This document shows, one piece after another, positions 593 to 44,007 of a DNA stretch of 44,007 nucleotides. The notes beneath the pieces are model-generated. The model had not been told where the DNA came from. It worked only from the letters and a program-made list of their open reading frames with translations, and did no database searches. The stretch lies in NCBI GenBank assembly GCA_964543965.1, contig CAZJAX010000001.1, forward strand, positions 1 to 44,007, read 5' to 3'. Position numbers and translations under genes: made by a program. The DNA comes from an uncultured Planctomycetia bacterium. GTDB taxonomy: Bacteria; Omnitrophota; Gorgyraeia; 2-02-FULL-51-18. How positions within the stretch are numbered: the first letter of the stretch is position 1; the number at the start of each line of letters is the position of its first letter.

Positions 593-853
593 ATGAGTCT
601 AGCCTTTGATCTCAAGGTCGTGACGCCCGACGGCGTGGCCTTTCAAGGCCAGACGATTTCCGTTGTCGCGCCAGGGACTTTGGGGTATCTTGGAATCCTC
701 AAGAACCACGCCCCGCTGGTCACCTCGCTGGAAAAGGGCAACCTGACCTACAAAGACGAGGCCGGCGCTGTCCGTACGATGAAGATCGAAGGCGGCTTCC
801 TGGAAGTGCAGAAGAACCGGGTGTTGGTCTTAACAGATAAAGTAAGCGTATAA
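593..853 (+). CDS. atpC: F0F1 ATP synthase subunit epsilon, short form (86 aa, beta-sandwich domain only)
   Basis: It lies 10 nt after atpD. GILKNHAPLVTSL and GGFLEVQKNRVLVL match the epsilon N-terminal domain. There is no C-terminal helical hairpin. Confidence 0.8.
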   Translation: MSLAFDLKVVTPDGVAFQGQTISVVAPGTLGYLGILKNHAPLVTSLEKGNLTYKDEAGAVRTMKIEGGFLEVQKNRVLVLTDKVSV

Positions 854-877
854 AAGTTTTGCGGTCATAGCTTAGCT
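853..877 (+). repeat. Direct repeat copy A: 8 nt of flank plus tRNA-Asp nt 1-17 (orphan tRNA 5' fragment)
   Basis: 25/25 identical to 1173-1197. The two sequences diverge immediately afterwards (TCC versus GGC). Confidence 0.9.
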
Positions 878-881
878 TCCG

Positions 882-900
882 CCTGCCGCGCGGCGGCAGG
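882..900 (+). repeat. GC-rich hairpin CCTGCCGC-GCG-GCGGCAGG at the left border of the cassette
   Basis: Perfect 8-bp stem with a 3-nt loop. It shares the core CCTGCCG/CGGCAGG with the palindrome at 43429-43442. A second hairpin, CCTCATC-GAA-GATGAGG, lies at 911-927. Confidence 0.7.
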
Positions 901-944
901 ACGGACCCGTCCTCATCGAAGATGAGGCGGGGGCTGAAGAGATT

Positions 945-1190
945 ATGTATTACGTGTATGTTTTAATTAGCAAGAAAAACGGTAAAAGATATACTGGTTA
1001 CACGACAAAATTACCGGAGCAAAGGCTTAAGGAACATAATCAAGGCCTGAATACTTGGACTAGTCAGAACGGTCCATTTAAACTTTTGTATAGTGAGAGT
1101 TATTCTTCCGGACACGCGGCGCGAAAGAGAGAAGTTTACATGAAATCCGCCGCTGGAAGAAGATTTCTTGATAAAGTTTTGCGGTCATAG
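945..1190 (+). CDS. Small stand-alone GIY-YIG (URI-domain) nuclease family protein, 81 aa
   Basis: MYYVYVLISKKNGKRYTGYT...RLKEHNQG contains the GIY-(10 aa)-YTG motif and a conserved downstream R..EHN. Low GC. The stop codon TAG lies inside tRNA-Asp (nt 8-10 of the tRNA). Confidence 0.8.
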   Translation: MYYVYVLISKKNGKRYTGYTTKLPEQRLKEHNQGLNTWTSQNGPFKLLYSESYSSGHAARKREVYMKSAAGRRFLDKVLRS

Positions 1191-1197
1191 CTTAGCT
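1173..1197 (+). repeat. Direct repeat copy B (flank plus 5' end of the intact tRNA-Asp)
   Basis: 25/25 identical to 853-877. Confidence 0.9.
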
Positions 1198-1258
1198 GGC
1201 TTAAAGCGCCGCCCTGTCACGGCGGAGATCGAGGGTTCGAATCCCTTTGACCGCGCCA
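1181..1258 (+). tRNA. tRNA-Asp (anticodon GTC)
   Basis: The cloverleaf can be read by eye. Acceptor stem GCGGTCA/TGACCGC, anticodon arm CCGCC-CTGTCAC-GGCGG, T loop TTCGAAT, and an encoded CCA. Confidence 0.9.
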
Positions 1259-1380
1259 TTTTTTTCGATTAGAAGGTCATCTGCTTCGTTGTTCAGTCGT
1301 TCGCTTGTGCGGCGTAGCTCCCGCTACGCCTCCGCTCTCTCTTCTTCACGCCTCGCATATAACCTTCTAATCGAAAAAAA
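1259..1380. repeat. 19-bp perfect inverted repeat (TTTTTTTCGATTAGAAGGT ... ACCTTCTAATCGAAAAAAA) enclosing 84 nt
   Basis: The arms lie at 1259-1277 and 1362-1380. An internal hairpin GGCGTAGC-TCCC-GCTACGCC lies near 1311-1330. The repeat starts at the base after the tRNA-Asp CCA. Confidence 0.85.
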
Positions 1381-1446
1381 TGTGAATATATGAGCAAAGG
1401 GATTTAAATATATAAAAGGAGCACTCATGTCATCCGGTAAAGAAAA

Positions 1447-8325: not shown

Positions 8326-8985
8326 ATGGAAAGGCATTTTGACGAAGAGCTGAAGGACTTAAAGCAGAACCTGCTTCAAATGGCTGATATCGCTCAAGAA
8401 ATGATACGTCTTGCCATCCGCAGTCTGGTAGAGCGAAGATCCGAGCTGGCGAAGGATGTGTTCGCACTCGAAGACAAGGTAAACCACATGGAAGTCCATA
8501 TTGAGGACTCGGTGCTGAGGCTGCTGGTTCTCAGACAGCCCGCTGCCAAGGATCTGCGGTTTTTGACCGCTGTCCTTAAGATAAACAATGATCTTGAACG
8601 CGTCGCCGACCAGGCATGCAATATTACGGAATTGGCCGCGGATCTGCTAAAAGTGGCTCCGCTGAAGCCTTTGATCGATATCCCGCACATGGCGACGCTT
8701 GCTCAAAAGATGATCAAAGACAGCCTGGATGCATTCGTGCAGCATGACCCAAAGCTGGCCAAAGAGGTCTGTGTACACGATGATGATGTCGACCGCTTTA
8801 ATGATCAGATCTTCAGGGAGCTTTTAACTTACATGATGCAGGATCCCGCCAATATCGCCCGAGCGGTGGATTTGATCCTTATCAGCCGTAACCTCGAAAG
8901 GATCGCTGATCATGCCACGAACATCAGCGAAGAAGTGATCTTTATCGAGGAAGGCAAGAACGTCAAACACCAGACAGGAAGCTAA
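8326..8985 (+). CDS. phoU: Phosphate signalling complex protein PhoU
   Basis: 219 aa. Two repeats carry the E(R/x)xxD motifs (NNDLERVADQA and SRNLERIADHA). Follows pstB. Confidence 0.9.
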   Translation: MERHFDEELKDLKQNLLQMADIAQEMIRLAIRSLVERRSELAKDVFALEDKVNHMEVHIEDSVLRLLVLRQPAAKDLRFLTAVLKINNDLERVADQACNITELAADLLKVAPLKPLIDIPHMATLAQKMIKDSLDAFVQHDPKLAKEVCVHDDDVDRFNDQIFRELLTYMMQDPANIARAVDLILISRNLERIADHATNISEEVIFIEEGKNVKHQTGS

Positions 8986-43350: not shown

Positions 43351-43407
43351 GGAACCGTTCAAAGCCAAACTCTCCGAAGTTTCTGATATAATATAAAACT
43401 TAATCAC

Positions 43408-43426
43408 AAGTTTATTCCCTGGTAGC
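43408..43426 (+). repeat. Direct repeat copy A (8 nt of flank plus tRNA-Asn nt 1-11); tRNA nt 11-20 recur at 43442-43451
   Basis: 19/19 identical to 43711-43729. CTCAGCTGGT at 43442-43451 equals 43729-43738. Confidence 0.9.
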
Positions 43427-43428
43427 CT

Positions 43429-43442
43429 GCCTGCCGGCAGGC
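43429..43442. repeat. 14-nt perfect palindrome GCCTGCCGGCAGGC splitting the orphan tRNA-Asn 5' fragment
   Basis: Read directly. It shares the CCTGCCG/CGGCAGG core with the hairpin at 882-900. Confidence 0.85.
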
Positions 43443-43457
43443 TCAGCTGGTGACGCT

Positions 43458-43667
43458 ATGTATGTGTATGCATTGCAGAGCATTAAAGATAAAAATTTGT
43501 ACATCGGGCTTTCTCAGGATCCAAAGAGAAGATTAGACGAGCATAATTCAGGACAAAATAGATCTACAAAATCTAGAACTCCTTTTTGCCTCATCTATAT
43601 AGAAAAATGTGAAAATAGAAAGCTTGCTAGAAAAAGAGAATTAGAGTTAAAATCAGGCTCTGGTTGA
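43458..43667 (+). CDS. Small GIY-YIG nuclease family protein, 69 aa; C-terminus cut by an in-frame TGA relative to its paralog at 945-1190
   Basis: MYVYALQSIKDKNLYIGLS...RRLDEHNSG matches the GIY-YIG core. Read past the TGA, the frame continues EFLKHLTKL, which parallels RRFLDKVLRS in the paralog. Confidence 0.7.
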   Translation: MYVYALQSIKDKNLYIGLSQDPKRRLDEHNSGQNRSTKSRTPFCLIYIEKCENRKLARKRELELKSGSG

Positions 43668-43710
43668 GAGTTCTTGAAACACCTCACCAAATTAAATCCA
43701 ATAATATAAA

Positions 43711-43729
43711 AAGTTTATTCCCTGGTAGC
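43711..43729 (+). repeat. Direct repeat copy B (flank plus 5' end of the intact tRNA-Asn)
   Basis: 19/19 identical to 43408-43426. Confidence 0.9.
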
Positions 43730-43794
43730 TCAGCTGGTAGAGCGGTTCGCTGTTAACGAACATGTCGTAGGTTCGAGTCCTACCCAGGGAGCCA
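43719..43794 (+). tRNA. tRNA-Asn (anticodon GTT)
   Basis: Acceptor TCCCTGG/CCAGGGA, anticodon arm GTTCG-CTGTTAA-CGAAC, T arm GTAGG-TTCGAGT-CCTAC, and an encoded CCA. Confidence 0.9.
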
Positions 43795-43831
43795 TTTAGT
43801 CCTCTCATAAGGGTAAAACCGAGAGGACAAA

Positions 43832-43866
43832 AGCCCTGATTCACACAATGGATCAGGGCTTTTTTA
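43832..43866 (+). terminator. Rho-independent terminator
   Basis: The 9-bp stem AGCCCTGAT/ATCAGGGCT has an 11-nt loop and is followed by TTTTTAT. An extra hairpin GTCCTCTC...GAGAGGAC lies at 43798-43828. Confidence 0.8.
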
Positions 43867-44007
43867 TGTCTTTGAAACGTCGCGAGATGCGCGGTCTTCA
43901 AAGCTCATAAAATTCAAAATCTACGATTTTCCGGTTCGTCCGAAAAAGCCAGCCAACCACGCAGCGATTATTCTTCAGAATCTGGCTTTTTATCTCGAAT
44001 GTGGCTT

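What the first reader, a model, noticed from the sequence alone, without database searches (positions are those of the whole stretch)
43388..43794. Second GIY-YIG cassette at tRNA-Asn with the same architecture and the same CCTGCC(G)/(C)GGCAGG palindrome
Upstream of the second GIY-YIG ORF, tRNA-Asn nt 1-20 plus 8 nt of flank are duplicated (43408-43426 and 43442-51, versus 43711-43738). The orphan copy is split by a 16-nt insert containing the perfect palindrome GCCTGCCGGCAGGC. The A/T stretch ATAATATAAAA also recurs upstream of both copies.

The cassette at tRNA-Asp carries CCTGCCGC-GCG-GCGGCAGG at the equivalent position. Two independent tRNA loci therefore share four features: an orphan tRNA 5' fragment ending in the D-loop, the same palindrome core, an AT-rich GIY-YIG ORF, and an intact tRNA. 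This argues for a family of site-specific elements rather than coincidence. The palindrome could be a recognition or terminator structure.
Basis: seen in the sequence. Interest (0 to 1): 0.7.

Follow-up and report, generated by a model that had tools for sequence, protein, structure and literature searches.

The report
tRNA-linked GIY-YIG nuclease and hairpin cassette
A 300-base selfish-looking insert, made of a tiny nuclease gene, a GC-rich hairpin and a duplicated start of the neighbouring tRNA gene, sits in front of tRNA-Asn; it belongs to a large family of tRNA-linked cassettes found across several bacterial phyla, and I found no description of this architecture.

Summary
Window 43388-43794 holds an orphan 5' piece of tRNA-Asn split by a 16-nt palindromic insert, then a 69-aa GIY-YIG ORF, then intact tRNA-Asn. 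A second cassette with the same layout sits at tRNA-Asp (853-1258).

It is not a local oddity. Among 89 homologous ORFs in 80 species genomes, 49 have a same-strand tRNA directly downstream and 17 have one directly upstream. In 35 of 51 cassettes the upstream piece matches its own tRNA better than any other tRNA. GC hairpins are 44-fold enriched just upstream of the ORFs, and hairpin type follows nuclease clade across phyla.

Related genomes carry empty sites for both window cassettes. The ORFs are compositionally foreign (GC3 0.27-0.38 against 0.70-0.79 for host genes) and under strong purifying selection. The hairpin leader is more conserved than synonymous sites.

The best reading is a mobile cassette in which a single-domain GIY-YIG nuclease works with a cognate DNA hairpin. 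This resembles the recently described Ssn/SRM pairs, but here the unit is inserted at tRNA genes with duplication of the target.

The nuclease-hairpin pairing is known. The tRNA-targeted architecture, orphan fragments, solo units and tandem arrays appear undescribed. The insertion mechanism is inferred, not shown.

The parts
43388..43398 (+). ATAATATAAAA, the upstream copy of an 11-mer that recurs at 43701-43711. It may be a -10-like element, but its significance is uncertain.
   Evidence: Sequence read. The alignments show no extended similarity beyond it, and no sigma-70 promoter was called.
43408..43426 (+). Orphan tRNA-Asn piece, part 1: 7 nt of upstream flank plus tRNA nt 1-11/12. It is identical to 43711-43729.
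   Evidence: It scores better against its own tRNA than against all 46 non-cognate tRNAs.
43427..43442 (+). 16-nt GC-rich insert CTGCCTGCCGGCAGGC carrying the palindrome GCCTGCCGGCAGGC (43429-43442). With its flanks it forms an 8-bp hairpin at 43424-43443. It sits at the spacer/D-stem junction of the tRNA cloverleaf (position 9/10, with ambiguity up to 11).
   Evidence: The same palindrome type occurs in the related cassettes L018, L023, L026, L027, L031, L058, L065, L066, L077 and L094.
43443..43451 (+). Orphan tRNA-Asn piece, part 2: tRNA nt 12-20, ending in the D-loop. It is identical to 43730-43738.
43458..43667 (+). GIY-YIG ORF2 (69 aa), a single-domain nuclease of UPF0213/Slx1-like type. 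The catalytic motif residues are retained. GC3 is 0.27. The ORF ends at a TGA that replaces a conserved Arg.
   Evidence: Pfam, alignment, PDB profile search, GC3, translation.
43668..43709 (+). In-frame continuation after the TGA (EFLKHLTKLNPII, then TAA). This is the ancestral C-terminus of ORF2 and indicates a recent nonsense mutation or read-through.
   Evidence: Compare the conserved C-terminal motif G-R-x-F-L.
43719..43794 (+). Intact tRNA-Asn(GTT), the functional copy of the duplicated target.
   Evidence: ARAGORN and Rfam at 69.5 bits. It aligns within an 89%-identical block to the tRNA at the empty site in L090.
853..877 (+). Cassette 1: orphan tRNA-Asp piece (7-8 nt of flank plus tRNA nt 1-17), 25/25 identical to 1173-1197. 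It starts at the last base of the atpC stop codon.
878..931 (+). Cassette 1: double GC hairpin. The first hairpin holds the palindrome CCTGCCGCGCGGCGGCAGG (882-900).
   Evidence: Folds give -40.5 kcal/mol (z -5.3) as RNA and z -5.5 as DNA.
945..1190 (+). Cassette 1: GIY-YIG ORF1 (81 aa), 43% identical to ORF2. GC3 is 0.38. Its stop codon lies inside tRNA-Asp.
1181..1258 (+). Cassette 1: intact tRNA-Asp(GTC).

Best explanation
**What it is.** Window 43388-43794 is a compact insertion cassette of about 300 bp placed at a tRNA gene. A twin sits at 853-1258. The cassette has three parts:
1. a copy of the first ~20 nt of the target tRNA plus a few to ~20 nt of its upstream flank, interrupted by a GC-rich hairpin;
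2. a gene for a ~80-aa nuclease consisting of nothing but a GIY-YIG catalytic domain (UPF0213/Slx1-like type);
3. the intact, functional tRNA gene.

**What is shown.**
- The cassette is a gain/loss polymorphism at orthologous sites.
- It is compositionally foreign.
- It belongs to a large family spread across phyla and across many tRNA species.
- The protein is under strong purifying selection.
- The hairpin is a constrained cis element whose type tracks the nuclease clade.

**What is inferred.** The nuclease and the hairpin form a cognate pair of the kind demonstrated for Ssn nucleases and their SRM/NTS hairpins. The protein would bind the hairpin when the DNA is single-stranded (during replication, heavy tRNA transcription or DNA uptake) and cut next to it, that is, inside tRNA-derived sequence.

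The resulting breaks would be repaired by recombination that uses the duplicated tRNA sequence as homology. That repair copies the cassette into tRNA genes that lack it (homing-like gene conversion). It would also generate the observed by-products: tandem arrays, ORF-less 'solo' orphan-plus-hairpin units, and pseudo-tRNA copies on either side of the ORF.

Because one complete tRNA copy is always regenerated, the insertion costs the host little. The hairpin also breaks the homology between the direct repeats, which should slow loss of the element by repeat recombination.
For: **Architecture is widespread.**
- 535 relatives were confirmed in one-genome-per-species GTDB contigs.
- Of 89 ORF hits in 80 loci, 49 have a same-strand tRNA within 170 nt downstream and 17 have one within 200 nt upstream.
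- The upstream piece matches its own tRNA better than all ~46-50 non-cognate tRNAs in 35 of 51 cassettes.

**Insertion polymorphism.**
- At the atpC to tRNA-Asp site, L086 is empty. L085 holds two orphans with hairpins.
- At the DUF7847 to tRNA-Asn site, L090-L093 are empty, with the tRNA 9 nt after the stop codon and dnaX-recR synteny preserved.

**Foreign origin.** GC3 is 0.27 and 0.38 for the two ORFs, against 0.70-0.79 for neighbouring genes.

**Functional protein.**
- Catalytic residues are conserved.
- dN/dS is about 0.05-0.07.

**Hairpin is a selected, cognate cis element.**
- It is 44-fold enriched just upstream of the ORFs.
- Nuclease clades co-cluster with hairpin type across phyla and across tRNA species.
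- The leader is 69/70 identical where synonymous divergence is 0.34, and 57/57 identical where it is 0.50.
- Stems are kept while loops vary.
- Hairpins sit at loop or junction positions of the cloverleaf and rarely in stems.

**By-products consistent with recombination.**
- A four-unit tandem array with a 316-bp period in L066.
- Solo units in L014, L020, L076 and L085.

**Precedents.**
- Single-domain GIY-YIG Ssn nucleases bind cognate hairpins that flank their own gene and cut only ssDNA beside them (PMC11893778).
- SegB cuts tRNA genes and drives recombination-dependent tandem amplification of a tRNA+segB unit (PMC2330249 and PMC13096335).
- Mobile endonuclease ORFs that carry a duplicate of the disrupted gene end are known in fungal mitochondria (PMC3630166).
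Against: - No biochemical activity is known for this protein. Its nearest solved relatives are uncharacterised UPF0213 proteins and Slx1, not Ssn proper.
- The published SRM consensus does not match the window's hairpins.
- A nuclease alone does not explain a 25-60 bp target duplication that includes the upstream flank.
- The hairpin lies inside the orphan with tRNA sequence resuming after it. Its position differs even within one clade on one tRNA type: 9/10 in the window, 21/22 in L094, 22/23 in L018.
- The intact tRNA copy keeps the sequence that the element supposedly targets.
- The orphan is 100% identical to the functional copy, so neither copy can be identified as imported.
- The window's two nucleases are only 43% identical. 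They did not spread recently within this genome.
- ORF2 carries a nonsense codon.
- The exact 20-mer palindrome is mostly found away from any GIY-YIG gene in viral contigs.
- The clade tree is a simple neighbour-joining tree without support values.
Confidence: 0.55

Rival explanations
1. This is a classical free-standing homing endonuclease of the SegB type. The protein itself recognises double-stranded tRNA-gene sequence and cuts alleles that lack the cassette. The hairpin is only an expression element, such as an mRNA 5' stabiliser, attenuator or autorepressor operator, or it is simply a spacer that protects the orphan from re-cleavage.
For: - Empty and occupied alleles exist.
- The association with tRNA genes is strong.
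- SegB recognises a conserved tRNA motif and cuts many tRNA genes.
- The hairpin lies in the predicted 5' leader of the ORF, just downstream of the duplicated tRNA upstream flank.
Against: - The protein is 69-90 aa, a catalytic domain only, with no DNA-binding domain. Characterised GIY-YIG homing enzymes are two-domain proteins (abstract of PMC3664794, listed).
- The intact tRNA in the same genome would remain a target.
- There are no close relatives in phage collections.
- Hairpin sequence, and not just structure, is conserved and co-varies with the protein.
Confidence: 0.15
2. This is a host-serving, domesticated gene. The small nuclease would act in tRNA or DNA maintenance, or in control of incoming DNA as SsnA does in Neisseria. 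It would be placed in tRNA operons for co-expression. The orphan pieces would be scars of local tandem duplication and decay, not of transposition.
For: - Purifying selection is very strong.
- Pseudo-tRNA copies occur on either side of the ORF and range from nearly full length to short. This is expected from decay of a redundant duplicate.
- Stand-alone Slx1-like GIY-YIG genes are recurrently fused or linked to tRNA methyltransferase homologues (PMC1564403).
- SsnA has a host-level role in transformation.
Against: - Composition is foreign.
- The cassettes are absent from close relatives at the same sites.
- The same clade occurs in different phyla and at different tRNAs.
- Tandem arrays and multiple divergent copies per genome occur.
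- One window copy carries a nonsense mutation.
- Most homologues sit on very short metagenomic contigs, as repeats do.
Confidence: 0.12
3. The hairpins are independent miniature palindromic elements (REP-, RPE- or DHE-like), mobilised by some other activity. They accumulate in dispensable pseudo-tRNA copies. Their link to the GIY-YIG gene is indirect.
For: - The exact 20-mer occurs 42 times in IMG/VR, and 40 of those copies have no GIY-YIG gene and no tRNA gene nearby.
- Hairpin units occur in frame inside long ORFs in L004, L036 and L075.
- Palindrome position inside the orphan varies.
- TSD-like repeats of at least 6 bp flank 4 of 40 viral copies, against 1.7% in controls.
Against: - In genomes with the nuclease, hairpins are 44-fold concentrated at the cassettes.
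- Hairpin type follows nuclease clade.
- In the 44-kb window there is no copy outside the two cassettes.
- The REP/RAYT and SRM/Ssn precedents show that dispersed copies are compatible with a cognate enzyme.
Confidence: 0.08
4. The function lies at the RNA level. The orphan tRNA 5' piece plus hairpin would be transcribed as a small RNA or leader that guides or regulates the nuclease, for example by pairing with the tRNA gene or transcript.
For: - The layout of a 17-27-nt target-matching segment next to a stable hairpin resembles a guide plus scaffold.
- The orphan is kept identical to the tRNA.
Against: - The orphan length and the hairpin position are highly variable.
- Three-nucleotide loops and loop-free perfect palindromes point to DNA rather than RNA structure.
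- The G.T versus A.C mismatch test gave no RNA signal.
- No Rfam family matched.
- SsnA does not bind RNA.
Confidence: 0.03
5. This is a remnant of an integrase-type genomic island or prophage attachment site at a tRNA gene.
For: tRNA genes are classic integration sites, and integration leaves partial tRNA repeats.
Against: - The repeat is the 5' part of the tRNA, not the 3' part.
- The whole unit is only ~300 bp, and no recombinase gene lies between the repeats.
- The same tiny unit recurs in dozens of genomes.
Confidence: 0.02

Closest known systems
Ssn nucleases and their SRM/NTS hairpin repeats (Chenal et al. 2025, Nat Commun, PMC11893778)
   Same: - Both are single-domain GIY-YIG proteins of about 80-94 aa.
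- In both, the gene is flanked by a GC-rich hairpin with a short (3-nt) loop.
- In both, hairpin variants pair with nuclease variants.
- In both, hairpins are also dispersed elsewhere.
- The authors noted that the unit looks IS-like.
   Different: - The nearest solved relatives here are UPF0213/Slx1-cluster proteins, whereas Ssn is defined by CDD cd10448. That membership could not be tested.
- The published SRM consensus does not match these hairpins.
- That paper reports no link to tRNA genes, no orphan tRNA fragments, no target duplication and no empty sites ('tRNA' occurs 0 times).
- The hairpin here lies inside a tRNA-derived sequence.
Phage T4/T6 SegB, a free-standing GIY-YIG homing endonuclease in the tRNA gene cluster (PMC2330249, PMC13096335)
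   Same: - Both are GIY-YIG genes embedded among tRNA genes.
- SegB targets tRNA gene sequence.
- Both are present or absent between relatives.
- SegB drives tandem amplification of a tRNA+nuclease unit by recombination through short homology. Compare the 4-unit array in L066.
   Different: - SegB is a larger two-domain, phage-borne enzyme that recognises the T-psi-C region and cuts near the tRNA 3' end.
- The proteins here are catalytic domain only and chromosomal.
- The duplicated part here is the tRNA 5' end, and a cognate hairpin is present.
- There is no detectable close sequence relationship.
Mobile endonuclease ORFs (mORFs) with duplicated gene termini in fungal mitochondria, such as Allomyces atp6 and Glomus atp6/atp9/cox2/nad3 (PMC3630166)
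   Same: In both, an endonuclease ORF is inserted in a gene together with a replacement copy of the disrupted gene end. This leaves a displaced, non-functional fragment and a working hybrid gene.
   Different: - The mORFs sit in protein-coding genes, duplicate the 3' terminus, and encode LAGLIDADG or larger GIY-YIG enzymes.
- In the mORFs the inserted copy is visibly foreign.
- Here the target is a tRNA gene, the 5' part is duplicated, and the two copies are identical.
- From memory only, not checked here: mobile double-hairpin elements accompany such ORFs in Allomyces.
REP elements and their RAYT (IS200/IS605-like) transposases
   Same: Both pair a single enzyme gene, flanked by its cognate hairpin, with dispersed hairpin copies. 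In both, the hairpin class co-varies with the enzyme clade.
   Different: RAYTs are HUH/Y1 transposases, not GIY-YIG nucleases. REPs are not tied to tRNA genes and do not sit in duplicated target fragments.

Membership tests
GIY-YIG nuclease superfamily (Pfam PF01541) | Significant match to the GIY-YIG domain profile | tested here: met
   ORF2 scores E 1.2e-16 (61 bits, cut-off 22.6). ORF1 scores E 8.3e-16.
GIY-YIG nuclease superfamily (Pfam PF01541) | Conserved catalytic residues: the Tyr of GIY, the Tyr and Gly of YIG, Arg, His/Tyr and Glu | tested here: met
   Invariant columns Y5, Y16, G18, R27, H31, E63 and K67 (ORF1 numbering) are present in both window proteins. ORF2 lacks only the C-terminal ~13 residues because of a TGA codon.
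UPF0213 / prokaryotic Slx1-like stand-alone GIY-YIG | Closest sequence relatives are the UPF0213 proteins, with a single-domain length of about 80-107 aa | tested here: met
   The profile of 35 family members hits PDB 1zg2 (BH0048, E 1.6e-16) and 1ywl (EF2693, E 1.7e-15), then the Slx1 GIY-YIG domains (E 3e-6). 1ywl is placed in the Slx-1 cluster by PMC1564403.
Ssn family (site-specific ssDNA nucleases, CDD cd10448) | Assignment to cd10448, or blastp E<1e-10 to N. meningitidis SsnA | not testable with these tools
   No CDD search is available and no SsnA sequence was held.
Ssn family (site-specific ssDNA nucleases, CDD cd10448) | Gene flanked by an SRM element matching the published degenerate consensus | tested here: not met
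   The SRM regular expression gives no match in either window cassette. It gives only 1 match in all cassette zones, at L021 2812-2839. GC hairpins of another sequence class are present instead.
Ssn family (site-specific ssDNA nucleases, CDD cd10448) | Binds and cuts only single-stranded DNA next to its hairpin | not testable with these tools
   This requires purified protein and oligonucleotide assays.
Free-standing homing endonuclease (SegB / I-TevI type) | Presence/absence polymorphism at homologous loci | tested here: met
   Empty sites L086 (tRNA-Asp) and L090-L093 (tRNA-Asn).
Free-standing homing endonuclease (SegB / I-TevI type) | Catalytic domain tethered to a sequence-specific DNA-binding domain | tested here: not met
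   The proteins are 69-81 aa, fully covered by the GIY-YIG domain alone.
Free-standing homing endonuclease (SegB / I-TevI type) | Cleaves the allele that lacks the element, while the occupied allele is immune | not testable with these tools
   The intact tRNA copy persists unchanged beside the ORF, so immunity by site disruption is not evident.
Mobile endonuclease ORF with duplicated gene end (fungal mORF type) | Endonuclease ORF lying between a displaced gene fragment and a functional copy of the gene | tested here: met
   The layout occurs in 35 of 51 cassettes.
Mobile endonuclease ORF with duplicated gene end (fungal mORF type) | The inserted copy of the gene end is foreign, that is, diverged from the displaced native one | tested here: not met
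   The orphan and the functional copy are identical over 25 nt (Asp) and 28 nt (Asn). The segments are short, so the test is weak.
Integrase-mediated island at a tRNA gene | Recombinase gene between direct repeats made of the tRNA 3' part | tested here: not met
   The only ORF between the repeats is the 69-81-aa GIY-YIG gene, and the repeat is the tRNA 5' part.
Group I intron in a tRNA gene | Ribozyme core detectable, with insertion inside the tRNA | tested here: not met
   No intron model matched in either cassette. The cassette lies upstream of an uninterrupted tRNA.
Intrinsic terminator | GC hairpin followed by a T-tract | tested here: not met
   No terminator was called at 43424-43443 or at 878-931.
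REP/RAYT-type system | HUH/Y1 transposase as the cognate enzyme | tested here: not met
   The adjacent gene is a GIY-YIG nuclease.

The most novel reading that the evidence does not exclude
Single-domain GIY-YIG nuclease plus cognate hairpin units would be true autonomous mobile elements. They would recognise hairpin and cloverleaf structures in single-stranded DNA and insert at loop or junction positions of tRNA genes, duplicating the 5' part of the target. Their hairpins would also disperse in trans, landing in orphan tRNA copies, in the variable loop of a phage tRNA-Met, and in frame in protein genes. This would be the first evidence that the Ssn-like nuclease/hairpin pairs are transposable elements with tRNA target specificity, that is, a GIY-YIG counterpart of REP/RAYT and IS200/IS605.
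Probability: 0.3. Interest if true: 0.82.

Novelty: new variant of a known kind. Interest (0 to 1): 0.68.

Why it matters
- **A new route into essential genes.** If the reading is right, a minimal ~80-aa nuclease with a ~15-20-nt hairpin partner is enough to build a selfish element that colonises essential tRNA genes without harming them. It does so across Omnitrophota, CPR/Patescibacteria, Bacteroidota and Ignavibacteriota.
- **A biological context for Ssn-like nucleases.** The recently discovered hairpin-directed single-domain GIY-YIG nucleases would gain a mobility role and a target preference. Their role outside Neisseria is stated to be unknown (PMC11893778).
- **Annotation and assembly.** The family would explain many orphan tRNA fragments and 'pseudo-tRNAs' in genome annotation. 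It would also explain assembly breaks at tRNA loci in metagenomes.
- **Possible tools.** It offers a panel of naturally paired nuclease and hairpin specificities that could be tried as tools for cutting single-stranded DNA.
- **Experimental access.** Cultivable hosts such as Zunongwangia and Melioribacter carry cassettes, so the question can be tested directly.

Tried and rejected
- **Metagenome scan.** A scan with the flanking DUF7847 protein found only three distant partial matches.
- **False lead.** The top AtpD hit, P0034, belongs to an unrelated Terriglobales contig with a long AtpC.
- **Uninformative contigs.** L087 ends 12 nt after atpC. L088 has a different gene order.
- **Exact look-up of ORF2.** It found nothing.
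- **RNA and defence libraries.** Rfam shows only the tRNAs in both cassettes. PADLOC gave nothing meaningful. PHROGs and NCBIfam gave only marginal homing-endonuclease hits.
- **Phages.** INPHARED has no homologue. In IMG/VR only 2 of 26 hits are full-length relatives.
- **Promoter and terminator scans.** They gave no support for a duplicated sigma-70 promoter or for a terminator at the palindromes. The idea that the duplicated flank carries the tRNA promoter therefore stays an inference.
- **Flank motif.** The AAGTTT flank shared by the two cassettes is not found at the other two tRNAs of the window. It does occur at the empty tRNA-Asp site of L086, so it is probably native.
- **Flank alignment.** Alignment of the sequences beyond the repeats shows no further similarity. 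The window cassettes therefore show no sign of being decayed tandem arrays.
- **RNA versus DNA hairpin.** The G.T versus A.C mismatch test was inconclusive.
- **Target-site duplications.** The search around dispersed palindromes gave only a weak signal, 4 of 40.
- **Published SRM consensus.** It does not match these hairpins.
- **Literature.** Searches on GIY-YIG with tRNA, orphan fragments, YhbQ/UPF0213 or the palindrome sequence found no description of this architecture. The library lacks most subscription-journal papers, so earlier reports cannot be excluded.
Full report
**1. The observation**

ARAGORN and Rfam place tRNA-Asn(GTT) at 43719-43794.
- A 19-nt stretch at 43408-43426 (7 nt of flank plus tRNA nt 1-11/12) is identical to 43711-43729.
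- It is followed by a 16-nt insert, CTGCCTGCCGGCAGGC (43427-43442).
- After the insert, 43443-43451 repeats tRNA nt 12-20.
- The insert holds the perfect palindrome GCCTGCCGGCAGGC. With its tRNA-derived flanks it makes an 8-bp hairpin at 43424-43443.
- The ORF 43458-43667 is a GIY-YIG domain (E 1.2e-16).

The cassette at tRNA-Asp has the same order:
- orphan 853-877, identical to 1173-1197 (25/25);
- palindrome 882-900 inside a double hairpin at 878-931 (-40.5 kcal/mol, z -5.3);
- ORF 945-1190;
- tRNA 1181-1258.

CCTGCC...GGCAGG occurs nowhere else in the 44-kb window, where 0.04 matches are expected. An independent assembly of the same organism reproduces the sequence (L089).

Two refinements are needed. 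First, the two palindromes share only their core. Second, ORF2 stops at a TGA that replaces a nearly invariant Arg. The frame then continues, still conserved, for 13 codons to 43709. This indicates a recent nonsense mutation or read-through.

**2. A large family, not a local curiosity**

The two window proteins are 43% identical. A scan of one genome per species confirmed 535 relatives, and I kept the best 80 loci. The hosts are Omnitrophota, many Patescibacteria/CPR lineages, Bacteroidota, Ignavibacteriota and others.
- Of 89 ORF hits, 49 have a same-strand tRNA gene within 170 nt downstream.
- 17 have a tRNA gene within 200 nt upstream only.
- 5 are cut off by a contig end.
- At least 14 different amino-acid specificities are involved.

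In 35 of 51 cassettes, the 160 nt before the ATG contains a piece that matches the first 45 nt of its own downstream tRNA better than any of ~46-50 non-cognate tRNAs.

The orphan usually runs to within 0-10 nt of the start codon. It ends anywhere from the D-loop to the T-arm. Where the intact tRNA lies upstream instead, a damaged copy lies downstream of the ORF (L014, L032, L070).

The general rule is that the ORF sits between two copies of one tRNA. One copy is intact. The other is truncated on the ORF side and interrupted by hairpins.

**3. The hairpin is part of the element**

GC hairpins with the core NNNGCC-loop-GGCNNN occur at 2.98 per kb in the 130 nt upstream of the ORFs, against 0.068 per kb in the rest of the loci. 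That is a 44-fold enrichment.

Three main types appear:
- CCTGCC(TGCC)/(GGCA)GGCAGG, the window's type;
- double units of TCAGCC/GGCTGA and TCCGCC/GGCGGA;
- GTCGCC-N3-GGCGAC.

In a neighbour-joining tree of 96 ORFs, nuclease clades coincide with hairpin types (no support values). The CCTGCC clade joins the window's tRNA-Asn cassette with cassettes at Asn, Leu, His and Arg tRNAs from WOR-1, Levyibacteria and four Bacteroidota genera.

The hairpin leader is much more conserved than silent sites of the adjacent ORF:
- 69/70 identical where pS is 0.34 (L067 versus L076);
- 57/57 where pS is 0.50 (L023 versus L066);
- 33/33 where pS is 0.71 (L025 versus L039).

Stems are kept while loops change (L024 versus L053). 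Most units have a 6-bp stem and a 3-nt loop. Many double units are reverse complements of each other and form one long perfect palindrome.

Inside the orphan, hairpins sit at loop or helix-junction positions of the tRNA cloverleaf in about 18 of 20 cases and in stems in about 2. The background is 35% stem. The sample is small and partly non-independent.

**4. Evidence for insertion and horizontal movement**

- *Empty site, tRNA-Asp.* In L086 (AtpD 86% identical) atpC is followed after 55 nt by an intact tRNA-Asp with no orphan, hairpin or ORF. In L085 (AtpD 88% identical) the same site holds two successive orphan pieces with two different hairpins before the contig ends.
- *Empty site, tRNA-Asn.* In L090-L093 (dnaX-recR-DUF7847 synteny; RecR 82% identical) tRNA-Asn starts 9 nt after the DUF7847 stop codon, with nothing in between.
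- *Composition.* The ORFs are foreign: GC3 is 0.27 and 0.38, against 0.70-0.79 for neighbouring genes.
- *Selection.* The proteins are under strong purifying selection, with dN/dS about 0.05-0.07.
- *By-products.* Zunongwangia atlantica has four tandem units with a 316-bp period before tRNA-Arg(TCG), while Z. pacifica has one. ORF-less solo units occur at L014, L020, L076 and L085.
- *Assembly behaviour.* Most homologues found in metagenomes sit on contigs of 0.5-1.5 kb, as expected for repeats that break assemblies.

**5. What the protein is**

A profile of the family hits the solved but uncharacterised UPF0213 proteins BH0048 and EF2693 (E 1e-16). Next come the GIY-YIG domains of Slx1 structure-specific nucleases (E 3e-6). 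This is the 'Slx-1 cluster' of stand-alone prokaryotic GIY-YIG proteins (PMC1564403).

It has no DNA-binding domain. There is no close relative in phage genome collections and no defence-system match.

**6. How it most likely works**

The decisive comparison is with the Ssn family (PMC11893778). Ssn proteins are ~94-aa single-domain GIY-YIG enzymes.
- Their genes are flanked by cognate hairpin repeats.
- They bind those hairpins only in single-stranded DNA and cut just upstream of them.
- Their hairpin variants pair with enzyme variants.

Gene-adjacent cognate hairpin, co-variation, 3-nt loops and dispersed extra copies all match what I see.

I therefore infer that the window's nuclease recognises its hairpin in single-stranded DNA and cuts in the adjoining tRNA-derived sequence. 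Recombinational repair through the duplicated tRNA sequence would then spread and rearrange the cassette.

SegB gives a precedent for a GIY-YIG enzyme that cuts tRNA genes and drives recombination-dependent tandem amplification of a tRNA+nuclease unit. Fungal mitochondrial mORFs give a precedent for endonuclease ORFs that carry a replacement copy of the disrupted gene end.

*Shown:* anatomy, distribution, empty sites, foreign composition, selection, hairpin constraint and co-variation.

*Inferred:* ssDNA hairpin recognition, the cut, and the repair route.

**7. What remains unexplained**

- The hairpin lies inside the orphan with tRNA sequence resuming after it. Its position differs even within one clade on one tRNA type: 9/10 in the window, 21/22 in L094, 22/23 in L018.
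- A nuclease alone does not account for a 25-60-bp duplication that includes upstream flank.
- The intact tRNA copy is not visibly protected.
- Orphan and functional copies are identical, so neither can be called imported.
- The exact 20-mer CCTGCCTGCCGGCAGGCAGG occurs 42 times in IMG/VR, far above chance, and only one copy is next to a GIY-YIG gene. Two copies lie at the variable-loop position of a tRNA-Met sequence.
- Hairpin units also occur in frame inside long ORFs.

These points keep alive two other readings: that the hairpin is itself the mobile unit, and that some other activity moves it.

**8. Membership and novelty**

The proteins are GIY-YIG (met) and UPF0213/Slx1-like (met). Membership in Ssn proper is open.
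- The CDD assignment could not be tested.
- The published SRM consensus is not met by these hairpins.
- One related locus, L021, does carry a canonical NTS-like element.

They are not typical homing endonucleases, because they lack a DNA-binding domain. They are not integrase islands, group I introns or terminators.

Ten literature searches found no description of small GIY-YIG genes with orphan tRNA fragments and hairpins. The Ssn paper does not mention tRNA at all. The library misses many subscription-journal papers, so this is absence of evidence only.

I rate the finding a new variant of a known kind. The nuclease-hairpin pairing is known. The tRNA-targeted cassette with target duplication, the solos and arrays, and the cross-phylum spread are new as far as I can tell.

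**9. Verdict**

- Confidence is 0.55 for the nuclease-plus-cognate-hairpin mobile cassette. The SegB-like reading (0.15), the domesticated-gene reading (0.12) and the independent-hairpin reading (0.08) are the main rivals.
- Interest is 0.68.

Noticed in passing
window 43665-43709; L089 1290-1627: ORF2 stops at a TGA exactly where homologues have a conserved Arg (CGA to TGA is one transition). The frame stays open and conserved for 13 more codons. The independent Logan unitig of the same organism ends exactly before this TGA. That could mean a branch (polymorphism) in the read graph at that base.
   Followed up: partly
window 1257-1382: Immediately after tRNA-Asp there is a 28-nt inverted repeat (93% complementary) enclosing 70 nt. 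It folds at -48.3 kcal/mol (z -7.5), occurs once in the window, and is absent from the empty-site relative L086. It could be a long terminator or another small inserted element.
   Followed up: partly
window 43714-44006 versus L090 3782-4074: The tRNA-Asn and the ~215 nt downstream of it (two hairpins plus ~150 nt) are 89% identical between the window and L090. The flanking coding DNA is only 65-73% identical, and the DUF7847 protein is 54% identical. This could be a conserved non-coding RNA or a recently exchanged segment.
   Followed up: partly
L066 2820-4175 (Zunongwangia atlantica) versus L023 (Z. pacifica): Z. atlantica has four tandem cassettes with a 316-bp period before tRNA-Arg(TCG). 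Units differ at 0-21 positions, and dN/dS between units is about 0.07. The congener Z. pacifica has a single cassette at the same tRNA species.
   Followed up: partly
L094 470-1416 (IMG/VR UViG_3300035537_000177): A CCTGCC-type cassette sits in front of a tRNA-Asn whose anticodon loop is itself interrupted. A group I intron core (Rfam RF00028, 86 bits) lies at 1182-1416. Two different selfish insertions therefore occupy one tRNA gene.
   Followed up: partly
L144 2239-2330 and L121 ~8570-8650 (IMG/VR): The exact 20-mer palindrome sits at the variable-loop position of a tRNA-Met(CAT) sequence. In L144 the tRNA is otherwise complete and is called as a 92-nt tRNA, so it may be a functional tRNA with an extra arm. 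In L121 the T-arm is partly deleted and no tRNA gene is called.
   Followed up: no
L004 1024-1053; L075 4641-4656; L036 4650-4668: Hairpin units of the same classes lie inside long open reading frames. In L004 the 30-nt double unit is in frame within a 422-aa frame. This resembles Rickettsia palindromic elements that insert into protein genes.
   Followed up: partly
L021 2812-2839 (minus strand): A canonical Neisseria-type NTS/SRM element (TGTCATTCCCGCGAAGGCGGGAATCTGC) lies 76 nt upstream of a tRNA-His cassette ORF, in addition to the TCCGCC hairpin in the orphan. This hints that the family overlaps with Ssn proper.
   Followed up: no
L085 1263-1407: At the atpC to tRNA-Asp site of a close relative there are two successive orphan tRNA-Asp pieces with different hairpins (CTGCC..GGCAG and GGCACGTC..GACGTGCC) and no ORF before the contig ends. 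The same site is therefore occupied differently in different lineages.
   Followed up: partly
one search hit table (P0001-P0033): Most close homologues of ORF1 in the 5.8-billion-protein collection sit on contigs of only 0.5-1.5 kb. This suggests that these cassettes or their tRNA repeats routinely break metagenome assemblies.
   Followed up: no
literature: PMC1564403: Stand-alone Slx1-like GIY-YIG genes were reported in 2006 to be fused or linked to COG4123 and TrmH-type methyltransferases. TrmH is a tRNA Gm18 methyltransferase. From memory, COG4123 is now also assigned to a tRNA methyltransferase. This is an older, unexplained tie between this nuclease cluster and tRNA biology.
   Followed up: no
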